A stretch of 64,000 nucleotides of DNA from a virus (IMGVR_UViG_3300031555_004524:64001-128000), one strand, 5' to 3'. Shown: positions 15,569 to 19,780, numbered from the stretch's first letter. The notes: generated by a model not told the origin, from the sequence alone. Numbers and translations: made by a program.

Positions 15569-16003
15569 CTATTCTTTCTTCTCTATTTTTGTAAATAATT
15601 TTCGATGGAATAAATATTTTTCTGATTGTTCTCTGAGTTCTACACTACGGTAGAAATCCTTCATTGGATCTGCTACTCTCATTTCTTCCTCAGGAATCTT
15701 TCTAAACAATGGTTTATATTCAACCTTCTCAATCTTTCTGATAGGTCTATGCATAAATAATCTAGTCTTCTTTTTAGCTTTCTTTACAAATTCTAATTTA
15801 AGACCCATTGTTTTCAAATATGCATTAAGAATTTCAACATTTCTATTTTTAGAATTACTGTCAAGATTAATATCAACATGATATGGATCTCCAGTGATTG
15901 CTTCTCTCATTAAACGTCTAGCTTGTGGAGATACTGAATGAGTCATTAAACATTGCACAACATTTGCTGCACCCATGTGTAATAAATCGCCAGTTTCCAT
16001 TTC
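15569..16003 (-). CDS. RNA polymerase beta C-terminal subunit, exon 2
   Basis: Begins GAA ATG GAA (EME), completing the universal RpoB motif RFGEME that is broken at the end of exon 1. Confidence 0.88.
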   Translation of the reverse strand, partial: EMETGDLLHMGAANVVQCLMTHSVSPQARRLMREAITGDPYHVDINLDSNSKNRNVEILNAYLKTMGLKLEFVKKAKKKTRLFMHRPIRKIEKVEYKPLFRKIPEEEMRVADPMKDFYRSVELREQSEKYLFHRKLFTKIEKKE

Positions 16004-16185
16004 CGTAAGTAATTATTATTTATTATAAATATCTAATAACACTTTCCCCCTTCATAGTCCCATCATGTATGAAACTCCACACTAAGTATATAATCTTAGT
16101 GGATCACTGTATACAGTGATCGGGGCTTAAGTTCCCGAATACGGTTTCGGTACAATTATATCCGTAATATTTATTTAGATGAATA
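16004..16185 (-). ncRNA. Putative TnpB omegaRNA scaffold, overlapping the intron 3' end
   Basis: Non-coding stretch after tnpB: GTACCGAAACCGTATTCGGGAACTTAAGCCCC, hairpins GATCACTGTATACAGTGATC and CACTAAG..CTTAGTG, then GACTATGAAGGGGGAAA. Resembles Firmicute IS605/IS607 right-end omegaRNAs; GCCCC/GGGGG could form a pseudoknot. Confidence 0.65.
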
Positions 16186-17448
16186 TTATACGAAATTTAA
16201 TGTAGGATAAATAGCTAAATTTTTAGCAGCATTATCATCTCGATTTATAACTAATCCACATACTGGGCATCTATATATTTTTCTAGCCCCAATATTATGA
16301 ATATTTCCACATGAACTGCATCTATTAGTAGATGGATATTTTTTATCAGCTCTAATTATAGGAATACCATGCATTTGGCATTTGTATACTATTATTTCTT
16401 GAACCTTATATAAGCAATGTTCAAGTATATTAGCATTATATGCTTGCTTAGCAGACATTGGTATTCTTGATGTATCTTTTATAAGCATATCTGAAACTTT
16501 TAAATCTTCAATAACAACAGCTTGAGGGTTTAGTGCTATTATATTATGAGATACATAATTATGAACTTCGTTCAGTTTTCTGTTATACTTTTTACGATAA
16601 TATTTATTTATTTTACAAATAGTTTTATCCATATTTTTCGTTCTAATACCATCACACTTCTTGAGTCTCGAAGCATTAATATTATACTGCCTATTTAATT
16701 TTGTTTGAAGTCTTTTTATTTTCTTGGACTCCTTATCAATATTAGGCAATTGTATTTTTATCCCATTTGAATCAACTATCCAATTTGTTTTACTACATCC
16801 TAAGTCAATTCCTATAGTATCACTATATGGACTATTTTCTATGATATTATGCATCTTATCATAGTTAGAAAAATTCATATTATCTGATTTTTTCATAGTA
16901 AAACTTAAATAGTAATTTTCACCATCAAATGTTATTCTTGGGTTATAATATTCTCTATATCTAGGATCATCTTTATATGTAGAACTTTTACCTATACAAT
17001 ATTCTTTTGGTATATGTCCACATAAAATAGTTCCAATTTTTTTAGAAATTTTAACTGAAGATTTTCCTATAGTTAATCTATCTGCTCTTATAGCCATACT
17101 TTGAGCTATAGATTTCTTAGATTTATATTTAGGATAATCGCATTTTTTAGCTAAATACATTTTGAATGCATTAACAGCATCCCATAATGCAATTTTCATA
17201 GTAGTTGAATCGTATTCCAATAACCATGAATTTTCTGGCTTATTTTTAAATTCAGTAAATAAATTATTTATATCGAATTGCGATAATATCTTATTCGTAT
17301 TTTTAAAATATTCACTTTCAATTTCTATTGCAAAATTGTAGATATATCTCATAATCCCAAAATATCTTTTTATAATATCTTTTTGTTCATCAGTTGGATA
17401 TAATTGTATTTTATTTCCTATATATTCAATATCACTCATATATTTCAC
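16186..17448 (-). CDS. tnpB: RNA-guided endonuclease TnpB (IS200/IS605/IS607 family)
   Basis: N-terminal KIQLYPTDEQ..FGIMRYIYN, RuvC-I IGIDLG, RuvC-II VVIEDL, Zn finger CSSCG...CPVCG, RuvC-III NRDDNAAKNL; D-E-D triad intact. Confidence 0.93.
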   Translation of the reverse strand: MKYMSDIEYIGNKIQLYPTDEQKDIIKRYFGIMRYIYNFAIEIESEYFKNTNKILSQFDINNLFTEFKNKPENSWLLEYDSTTMKIALWDAVNAFKMYLAKKCDYPKYKSKKSIAQSMAIRADRLTIGKSSVKISKKIGTILCGHIPKEYCIGKSSTYKDDPRYREYYNPRITFDGENYYLSFTMKKSDNMNFSNYDKMHNIIENSPYSDTIGIDLGCSKTNWIVDSNGIKIQLPNIDKESKKIKRLQTKLNRQYNINASRLKKCDGIRTKNMDKTICKINKYYRKKYNRKLNEVHNYVSHNIIALNPQAVVIEDLKVSDMLIKDTSRIPMSAKQAYNANILEHCLYKVQEIIVYKCQMHGIPIIRADKKYPSTNRCSSCGNIHNIGARKIYRCPVCGLVINRDDNAAKNLAIYPTLNFV

Positions 17449-17998
17449 CCTCCTTTCATAAAAATATTTTTTATGAAGTTGTTAGGGTTGATATAAATAT
17501 ATAATATATTAGATATTTAATATTAAATTTATAATTACCTTATTTCATTATAATCGCAACTTATAATGCATGGTCAATTCCATGTCACTTCCATTACAGA
17601 ACGTGCGTAGATCATTTGTCCATCCGTTAATATTAACGGAGAGGTATTTTTCTTCCTCCTAGATCTATCATAGTAGATCTGCTTGAGGTTCTACATTAAG
17701 GCTTTCGCCGCCCCCGCCAGGGGCTGATCGTTGAACGTCTAACCATTAAGATTAGTTCGCTGCTAAAGATGGGCTTGTTATCGAATACTTAGGACTTATA
17801 TCATTCTAGACGATCAATAATATAAGCTTTTATTTCACCATATATTCATCCGTATTATATTTTTTCTGCTTTCGCAACCATCACGCTTATCTTTGCAGAT
17901 TACGTTGTGGAGAATACGGCTCTTAACCCACTTCCTAGCATTTAACTCCTTTGGAACACACCCATCACTGGATATGCTGTGAATTGCTGTTAAGCTAC

Positions 17999-19780
17999 AC
18001 CGAATCTGATTGGAGTATCTGTATATAATGCTTTATGATTTTTAGAAGCTTTTGATCTGGTATTTTCATTTTTAATATTTGTAGATGATAAGCTTGTTAC
18101 TGAGAATTTTTCTTCAGCGTACTGTTTCAATCTATAAATATAAATTTTACCTACTACCATTTCTCTTAATCCAGGAATATATCTAATATTTCCGTTACTA
18201 TCTTCTATCGGAATAATCATTTTATATTGCTTTATAAACGGGAACTCATGATATAATTGTCGTAATATATCAATACTTGTACTTTCAGACATAGGTTTAT
18301 TTGATAATAAAATATATCCATCTTCTATCATTTGATCAATATACCAACCTCTATCGTTATTAGTAGCACTATCATGATACATCATTTCATAAAATTCATT
18401 GGCTTCAGATTGAGATACATAAGATATATATCTATAAATCATCTCAATTGAATCGTCCAAACTAATATTATTATCTCTAATATATTCCAATAATCTTGTA
18501 CCAATAAATGTTAATGAAACCTCCGCTAATTGACCCCAATTCAATCTATTAGTACATGTAAATCCGTTGAAACATACTTCAAGTCTGTCACCATTTTCTG
18601 TTACAGGCATAAGATGATCTGGAGTTATTTTGGCAATAATACCTTTACCTCCAAATCTATTTGTAATTTTATCTCCTGCAATGGGAACACTTTCTTCCAA
18701 TATATAAAACTCTACCAAAGTACCAGTAAAACTTTTATCTTTGATGAAAGTTGTTCCTTCTAATTCACGTTTAGAATTAAACCATAATTCTTCTAACTCT
18801 CGTTCCATATGGATATATCCATGCTGTTTTCTTAAACGATTAATACATTCTACAATTTCTTTACATACTCTAATATGCTCATTGTAATAATATAACACTT
18901 GCTGATTAGAATATCTGGATTGTAAAATTTCTGGAGAGTTTGAATATATATTAATATCTATAACCTTCCCTGTTACTGTGAATTTCTCATCACTGATTAA
19001 CAATTGTTTTAATCTTTCTATAGATTGCATATATAAAGATTCTTCAATCTTTTCTCGTCTAACACCGACAAGAATACCATTGTTAACATACTCCCCAATA
19101 TCTGGGAATGCCTTATCTCCTAATAAATTTAGAAGAATATCATTATCATTCAATGATACCTGTACTCTTTTTAATAATGGAGATGCTAATTTTCTTGCTG
19201 CGGATTCTGATAACTCAATACCATCTTCCATAGTAATATCCGAACAGATATATCCACATAATAAGTTTACACCATCACATCTATTCTGATACTCATCATA
19301 TGAATATGAAGATCTTACTAATTCCCCTTCAGATATTTCATATCCAATATCCAATTTATCCAATACTGTATTGTCATAATCATATAAATAACCATATGTT
19401 TCTGTAGTATAACGATATGGAACTTTAGTGATTACTCCAAATTTTCCAGTATCAATATCTCTTGTTATTAAGTAATATGACTCATTTGGATTTGTTGTGA
19501 ACTTAGATATTTTATCAACAATTTCCAAATCAGACTCTGCTCTAATAATAGATGAACTTTCATCGCCATATCTATTTTCATATCCAGTACCTATTACTGG
19601 AACTTCTGGTTTAAGAATCTGCATAGCTTGCTCTAATTGGCTTTCTTGCATTATCTTTCTAGAACCAGAGTTTGTGCTAGAAAATGGTTGGAACAATCCT
19701 TTTCCACCCATTTGCTCTCTCGATGTTAATCGAGCTTCCTCATAACCAATGGTCTTTTCCAAGTCCATTATTGATGCCAT
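17999..19780 (-). CDS. RNA polymerase beta C-terminal subunit, exon 1 (spliced product about 738 aa)
   Basis: SGSRKIMQESQLEQ, EDGIELS, GDKITNRFGGKGII, NRLNWGQ, IYIYRLKQ, ending TPIRFG: conserved RpoB C-terminal segments. Confidence 0.9.

What the first reader, a model, noticed from the sequence alone, without database searches (positions are those of the whole stretch)
15569..19780. Group I intron in phage RNAP beta uses TnpB in place of a homing endonuclease
Seen: the intron splits the invariant RFG|EME motif (U at the 5' splice site, G at the 3'), encodes a catalytically intact TnpB and an omegaRNA-like 3' end, and has no TnpA. The sequence right after the element, which would be the guide, is exon 2 (GAAATGGAAACTGGCG). 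Established: IStrons fuse group I introns with TnpB elements, TnpB guides derive from the right flank, and jumbo-phage RNAP introns normally carry HNH or similar homing nucleases. Inference: RNA-guided homing in which TnpB cuts intron-less RNAP alleles of co-infecting phages and phage recombination (RecA, SbcCD) copies the intron. It could double as an inter-phage weapon.
Basis: partly seen in the sequence, partly recalled or inferred. Interest (0 to 1): 0.85.

Follow-up and report, generated by a model that had tools for sequence, protein, structure and literature searches.

The report
Transposase-less TnpB intron in phage polymerase
A 1,995-base self-splicing intron carrying an RNA-guided nuclease (TnpB) and its guide-RNA scaffold, but no transposase, splits an RNA polymerase gene of an uncultured jumbo phage; it belongs to a phage-restricted branch of the known 'IStron' elements that probably spreads by cutting intron-free copies of the gene in co-infecting phages.

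Summary
The element is real. It is a group IA2 intron with tnpB and an omegaRNA in the non-virion RNAP beta-C gene of a complete 248-kb phage that encodes no TnpA. The guide therefore starts at 16002 and the predicted TAM is GGTG (family consensus RGNG). It is not unique to this site. Its TnpB lies in a 38-protein clade whose long contigs are jumbo-phage-sized; the nine lineages examined sit in frame at nine conserved motifs in seven essential genes, none with tnpA. ORF-less and HNH-bearing siblings use the same ribozyme. Support for RNA-guided homing is indirect: intact nuclease under purifying selection, a phage late-promoter motif upstream of tnpB, site fidelity, and elements far more uniform than their flanking exons in relatives. 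Transposase supplied in trans is not excluded, and nothing was tested experimentally. The scan has noted comparable phage IStrons on other DNA. Verdict: new variant of a known kind.

The parts
17998..19780 (-). Exon 1 of the non-virion RNAP beta C-terminal subunit; ends ...RFG plus the first G of the Glu codon; its last four bases GGTG are the predicted TAM
   Evidence: RNAP beta; closest cultured match AR9/PBS1, 32%; spliced ORF
16003..17997 (-). The whole element (intron = IStron derivative), 1,995 nt, starting TAGC and ending CGG
   Evidence: single copy in the genome
17979..18000 (-). P1: exon GTG (18000-17998) paired with the internal guide CAC (17981-17979); the next guide bases pair with the start of exon 2
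   Evidence: (middle pair covaries in every element found)
17546..17977 (-). Ribozyme core P2-P9.2, class IA2 (P3 17950-17944/17648-17642; P7 17731-17725/17614-17609; P7.1, P7.2, P9-P9.2)
17503..17540 (-). 5' arm of the long AU-rich stem (about 34 bp) that loops out the tnpB cassette; pairs with 16043-16007
   Evidence: -21.9 kcal/mol
17472..17483 (-). AACA-N6-TA, AR9-type late promoter motif inside the intron, 15 nt above the ribosome-binding site (17454-17449)
   Evidence: consensus from PMC5312081; function inferred
16186..17439 (-). tnpB, 417 aa from the ATG at 17439; RuvC triad and Zn finger intact
16003..16153 (-). omegaRNA scaffold; pseudoknot 16144-16140 with 16007-16003, which includes both terminal G's
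15983..16002 (-). Predicted 20-nt guide = start of exon 2
   Evidence: position inferred and from CboIStron (10.1101/2023.11.20.567912)
15569..16002 (-). Exon 2 of the RNAP beta C-terminal subunit

Best explanation
It is a group B (IS607-type) IStron derivative without transposase that now lives as an RNA-guided homing intron of jumbo phages. From the long RNAP transcript the ribozyme splices out (after a G paired with C) and restores the polymerase subunit. From a phage late promoter inside the intron, a second transcript that lacks the ribozyme core makes TnpB and an unsplicable omegaRNA whose guide is exon 2. TnpB cuts the intron-free allele (TAM GGTG, family RGNG, plus the guide match) of a co-infecting close relative inside exon 2; its own junction (ACGG) lacks G at -3 and is spared. 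Recombinational repair copies the element. New sites are colonised rarely, by an unknown route. Shown by sequence analysis: anatomy, boundaries, no TnpA, conservation. Inferred: splicing, promoter use, TAM, cleavage, homing.
For: TnpB clade of 38 (SH-aLRT 99) with D/E invariant in 38/38 and the third catalytic D in 37/38, dN/dS 0.12-0.28. No TnpA remnant in 13 loci, only 60-109 nt between P9.2 and tnpB, no resolvase in 15 related phage records, no relative in 185,579 prokaryote genomes (the two intron-pattern hits lack the 5' motif and look like chance). Nine lineages examined, all in frame at conserved motifs of essential genes, against 58% intragenic and 54% of those in frame for bacterial IStrons (PMC4227781). 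Identical TnpBs stay at one site (10/10 places). In terminase-site carriers exon synonymous divergence is 5.4% against 0% in tnpB and 0.09% in the non-coding element, with exon variation up to 5 nt from the left end and none in the first 45 nt on the cut side; a second family shows 0/1939 against 9/300. Late-promoter motif in 9 of 13 members, 0/5000 shuffles. G at -3 in all left flanks and in no right end, the self/non-self rule of CboTnpB. ORF-less and HNH-bearing siblings, including an ORF-less intron at this same site (L017). 13 of 119 RNAP homologs break at this site; most of the rest are empty. The phage encodes UvsX-like and SbcC-like proteins.
Against: No experiment and no RNA data. No empty allele with a perfect guide match was found for this element: the closest relative (68% aa) mismatches at positions 9, 14 and 20, the best seed is 13 nt, and a solved IS607 TnpB is sensitive to single mismatches at positions 1-13 (PMC11061315). 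The sweep pattern comes from relatives chosen for identical TnpB, n=7, and the 45-nt gap alone is not significant. The many sites require some transposition route. A non-GG left core does not rule out TnpA.
Confidence: 0.68

Rival explanations
1. Ordinary non-autonomous group B IStron: moved by a host or plasmid IS607 TnpA in trans, with TnpB serving to restore the element after excision. The NG left-end dinucleotide travels with the element into RGGG targets, which would also explain why it always matches the internal guide.
For: Nine unrelated sites; two elements 85% identical over 2 kb lie in rpoB and gyrB. CGG right end, the trinucleotide CboTnpA needs (PMC13521648). CboTnpA integrates a circle with a non-GG dinucleotide at GG targets and leaves it at the left junction. 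The rare codon GGC (7% of Gly codons) is common at the sites. A full IStron with TnpA and a related ribozyme exists in the same protein neighbourhood (L131). IStrons spreading without their own ORF A are described.
Against: No TnpA in any clade locus or related phage record; no near-identical copies at different sites, one copy per site; no intergenic or antisense insertions among those seen; empty alleles are not enriched for GGG scars (1 of 11); phage-type promoter motif; L131 is not the sister group in the tree.
Confidence: 0.22
2. TnpB is kept mainly as an interference weapon: it cuts the RNAP gene of competing phages that are too divergent for repair from the carrier, as the HNH nuclease gp210 does for PhiPA3.
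For: The target is a conserved motif; empty alleles at only 33-68% aa identity keep GGNG and the first 7-13 guide bases (partly imposed by the search pattern). Precedent: PMC11620839.
Against: Those alleles carry 3-9 mismatches in 20 nt; shared host range is unknown; the uniformity of elements across diverged flanks points to copying, not only killing. Not exclusive of homing.
Confidence: 0.07
3. An immobile relic: it splices, but TnpB no longer has a function in this phage.
For: ORF-less siblings and a frameshifted tnpB (L117) show that decay happens in the family; no perfectly matching empty allele was found.
Against: Intact ORF, catalytic triad, pseudoknot, promoter motif and ribosome-binding site; dN/dS 0.27-0.28 against the nearest relatives.
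Confidence: 0.03

Closest known systems
Group B (IS607-type) IStrons: BcISt1, CboIStron/CbISt1-4 (Tourasse 2014, PMC4227781; Zedaveinyte 2023, 10.1101/2023.11.20.567912)
   Same: IA2 intron with the cassette after P9.2, 5' exon ending in G, CGG end, long AU-rich stem around the ORF, omegaRNA pseudoknot overlapping the 3' splice site, guide from the right flank; CbISt3/4 are already in phages
   Different: No tnpA or remnant anywhere in the clade; target ends in NG (T, C or A seen, never G) with a covarying internal guide; confined to conserved in-frame motifs of jumbo-phage genes; phage late-promoter motif for tnpB; HNH-bearing siblings
CsISt1 of Clostridium sporogenes (atypical group B, PMC4227781)
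   Same: tnpB only, inserted after a non-GG (AG) site; sister elements L031 and L093 also end in CAG
   Different: One bacterial copy there; here a diversified phage lineage. Sequence relationship to CsISt1 was not tested.
Homing-endonuclease group I introns of phages (T4 td/I-TevI from own knowledge; PhiPA3 gp210, PMC11620839; AR9 g189/g190 intron, PMC5312081)
   Same: Single fixed site in an essential gene, intron-internal phage promoter, polymorphic occupancy, ORF-less derivatives
   Different: Nuclease is RNA-guided and reprogrammed by the flank; non-canonical 5' splice site; IStron ancestry
IS605 TnpB gene drive in plasmids (Mears 2025, PMC11870625; reviewed in PMC13565253)
   Same: TnpB spreads an element between homologous replicons without TnpA
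   Different: Plasmid insertion sequence, no intron, not between phages
ISFba1 TnpB / RAGATH-18 reRNA, IS607 (PMC11061315; PDB 8IAZ)
   Same: Best natural match among solved structures (E 3e-49); G-rich TAM ending GGAG fits RGNG
   Different: Intron-less element; Rfam found no RNA family here

Membership tests
Group I intron, class IA2 | P3-P4-P6-P7 core with G-binding pair and terminal G | tested here: met
   P7, P6 and P1 100% paired; P3, P4, P7, P8 with compensatory changes
Group I intron, class IA2 | P7.1 and P7.2, extended P9 | tested here: met
   helices 9, 10, 12-14
Group I intron, class IA2 | U.G wobble at the 5' splice site | tested here: not met
   G-C at -1 and a Watson-Crick pair at -2; the same exception as group B IStrons
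Group I intron, class IA2 | Self-splicing | not testable with these tools
Group B (IS607) IStron | 5' exon ends in G; element ends in CGG | tested here: met
Group B (IS607) IStron | IS cassette after P9.2, enclosed by a 15-34 bp AU-rich stem | tested here: met
   ORF-less L017 keeps only a short AU-rich hairpin
Group B (IS607) IStron | TnpB plus omegaRNA whose pseudoknot overlaps the 3' splice site | tested here: met
   5-8 Watson-Crick pairs at the expected place in 11 of 12 elements (one the outgroup), five different paired sequences in the clade
Group B (IS607) IStron | Target ends in GG | tested here: not met
   TG, CG or AG in all clade elements; precedent CsISt1
Group B (IS607) IStron | Serine transposase TnpA, whole or remnant | tested here: not met
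   tnpB-only copies are admitted to the class
Group B (IS607) IStron | Related copies at unrelated sites | tested here: met
   at family level only (nine sites); not for near-identical copies
Group A (IS605) IStron | T-rich pentanucleotide target, TCAG end, U at the 5' splice site | tested here: not met
Homing intron | Intron-encoded nuclease intact and under selection | tested here: met
Homing intron | Occupied and empty alleles of a conserved site | tested here: met
Homing intron | Lateral spread at the same site | tested here: inconclusive
   sweep-like pattern in relatives, biased sample; not testable for this copy
Homing intron | Nuclease cuts the empty allele and the intron is copied | not testable with these tools
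   needs experiment

The most novel reading that the evidence does not exclude
A jumbo-phage lineage of IStrons has become a transposase-independent class of RNA-guided homing introns: the TAM has relaxed to RGNG (a Gly, Arg or Ser codon plus G, free at the wobble position), so one nuclease is retargeted to each new conserved motif by its flank, and a phage late promoter inside the intron removes the splicing-versus-guide conflict known from bacterial IStrons.
Probability: 0.4. Interest if true: 0.8.

Novelty: new variant of a known kind. Interest (0 to 1): 0.6.

Why it matters
It offers a natural, directly testable case of intron homing driven by an RNA-guided nuclease without a transposase. 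Both halves are published (IStrons; TnpA-independent TnpB drive in plasmids), but I found no paper on a phage lineage of this kind in the library searched. The family also gives many natural examples of the non-canonical G-C 5' splice site with a covarying internal guide, and a set of compact nucleases with a predicted relaxed TAM.

Tried and rejected
Rfam at gathering and E-value thresholds found neither the intron nor the omegaRNA; the structure was established by covariation instead. Single-sequence and alignment scans of viral contigs for the TnpB gave only distant (27-35%) hits. MAFFT did not align the omegaRNA regions; they were anchored by script. The sigma-70 promoter scan was at chance level. 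Rejected: group II intron (ends do not fit; group I core present); group A IStron; my first idea that P0003 sat at the same site (it is 39 codons downstream); my first idea that the TnpA-bearing L131 is the sister group; the argument that a non-GG core excludes TnpA. No self-target with more than a 7-nt seed exists in the genome. No structure prediction or complex job was needed.

Full report
Setting. The window lies in a complete 248,162-bp phage genome with terminal redundancy, 29% GC and no tRNAs. The interrupted gene is the C-terminal beta subunit of the non-virion RNA polymerase: the closest cultured matches are AR9/PBS1 at 32%, and two matches are annotated as non-virion.

Observation. 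Removing 1,995 nt gives one 738-aa frame. Of 119 homologs other than the window's own fragment, most are 712-771 aa and uninterrupted; 13 stop right after the FG of the motif with FGVA or FGEA, the read-through of this intron family. Rfam found nothing, so I assigned helices by hand and counted pairs on 17 relatives: 94.9% of cells paired, 45 of 76 pairs with changes on both sides, no shuffle as high, slid controls 36-47%. P7.1, P7.2 and the extended P9 place it in class IA2, as for all IStrons (PMC4227781). The structure was derived from these sequences, so the compensatory changes, not the percentage, are the evidence. tnpB (417 aa) has the RuvC triad and Zn finger. There is one copy, and no serine or Y1 transposase in the genome.

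The ends. The junction has a one-base ambiguity. Two sister elements (L031, L093) end in CAG and have a terminal G only if exon 1 ends in G. The omegaRNA pseudoknot includes both final G's and covaries with the right end. Group B IStrons splice after a G and end in CGG. A roughly 34-bp AU-rich stem encloses the cassette, another group B mark.

The family. The TnpB falls in a clade of 38 proteins, 38-57% identical to it, with support 99; their longest contigs reach 200-280 kb, and nothing was found in prokaryote genomes. Nine lineages were placed: this site; the same gene 39 codons downstream (L015); gyrB at KGLG-EM (L107); terminase at two sites (L109, L129); a second RNAP at TG-DK (L102, L098); a small RNAP beta subunit at SDR-EFE (L099); tubulin at YG-GCG (L104, L117); DNA polymerase B (L111). 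All are in frame, in sense, at conserved motifs, with only 60-109 nt between P9.2 and tnpB and no TnpA remnant. Fourteen related phage records have no resolvase (only five are at least 90% complete). The same ribozyme occurs without an ORF (L017 at this very site; many at a terminase NG-GFG site) and with NUMOD4-HNH genes in the P6 loop. A complete IStron with TnpA and a related ribozyme is the nearest BLAST outgroup (L131) but not the sister group; the sisters are two more TnpA-less elements in phage RNAP genes. Descent from IS607-type IStrons is thus well supported. Whether the phage introns gave rise to IStrons or the reverse is not resolved.

Why homing. Without excision there is no donor joint to repair, yet the nuclease is conserved (dN/dS 0.12-0.28; catalytic residues 37-38 of 38), so its likely target is an empty allele in another genome (inference). 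Identical TnpBs stay at one site. Among seven terminase-site carriers the 1,893-nt element has 2 variable positions while the exons have 29 in 867 nt; synonymous divergence is 5.4% in exons and 0% in tnpB; exon variation reaches -5 on the left and starts at +46 on the side where an IS607 TnpB cuts (16/22 nt, PMC11061315). Two other families show the same direction. These samples were picked for identical TnpB and are small, so this is suggestive only, and it concerns relatives, not this copy. An AACA-N6-TA motif, the AR9 late-promoter consensus (PMC5312081), is enriched before genes of this genome (37 of 143 against 9.7 expected) and lies 10-16 nt above the tnpB ribosome-binding site in 8 of 13 members, 9 counting one more distant match. 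A transcript from there lacks the ribozyme core and could not splice, which would sidestep the conflict described for CboIStron; this is inference. All left flanks have G at -3 and no right end does, matching the CboTnpB self/non-self rule.

What argues against. The family has reached many sites, and two elements 85% identical sit in different genes. CboTnpA can integrate a circle with a non-GG dinucleotide at GG targets and leave it at the left junction, so a transposase borrowed from the host could produce NG left ends that match the internal guide. Reverse splicing (4-8 contiguous guide pairs across the ligated junction) and off-target cutting (the gyrB and rpoB sites share GGTG plus five bases) are other routes; none was tested.

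Comparison and verdict. It works most likely as a homing intron. It meets the RNA-level marks of group B IStrons but not the GG target or TnpA, for which CsISt1 is a single precedent. IStrons in phages (CbISt3/4) and TnpA-independent TnpB drive in plasmids (PMC11870625) are published; a jumbo-phage lineage of this kind was not found in the papers searched. Earlier notes of this scan report similar elements in other phages; they are unchecked and not used as support. New variant of a known kind, interest 0.6.

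Noticed in passing
G000 ~164165-165500 (L154) and ~52550-53700 minus strand (L155), outside the window: Two further group I introns of this phage, each with a NUMOD4-HNH gene in the P6 loop; the first splits an RNAP beta' catalytic motif (LAA-DFDGD).
   Followed up: partly
L129, L134-L143: A terminase gene with three sites for this intron family (Walker A region, PG-D with TnpB, and a third with or without HNH); occupancy varies independently between otherwise close phages.
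   Followed up: partly
P0130, P0147, P0151, P0155, P0157, P0158, P0204, P0206, P0210, P0223: RNAP homologs with FGNME or FGYME lose the G at -1 and would be immune to this intron family; possible escape alleles.
   Followed up: no
L024, L027, L063, L064, L084, L094: Other intron-plus-TnpB elements without an obvious tnpA in viral contigs, in a separate TnpB clade and mostly ending in CAACGG; more typical group B IStrons.
   Followed up: partly
L131:1700-4330: A complete group B IStron (intron, MerR-resolvase TnpA, TnpB, omegaRNA) on a 152-kb contig, with a P7-P9 region resembling this family.
   Followed up: partly
insertion sites: The rare Gly codon GGC (7% in this genome) is the commonest at insertion sites and GGG was never seen within the clade; unexplained (stronger P1, or a dinucleotide carried by the element).
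   Followed up: partly
window 17455-17477 (-): A 10-bp hairpin abuts the tnpB ribosome-binding site and overlaps the predicted late start; not evident in the relatives.
   Followed up: no
L117: Tubulin-site element with a frameshifted tnpB but an intact pseudoknot.
   Followed up: no
L001:5116-5461: A related phage's RNAP beta gene has a ~345-nt interruption at the ITGR-FG motif, a different site.
   Followed up: no
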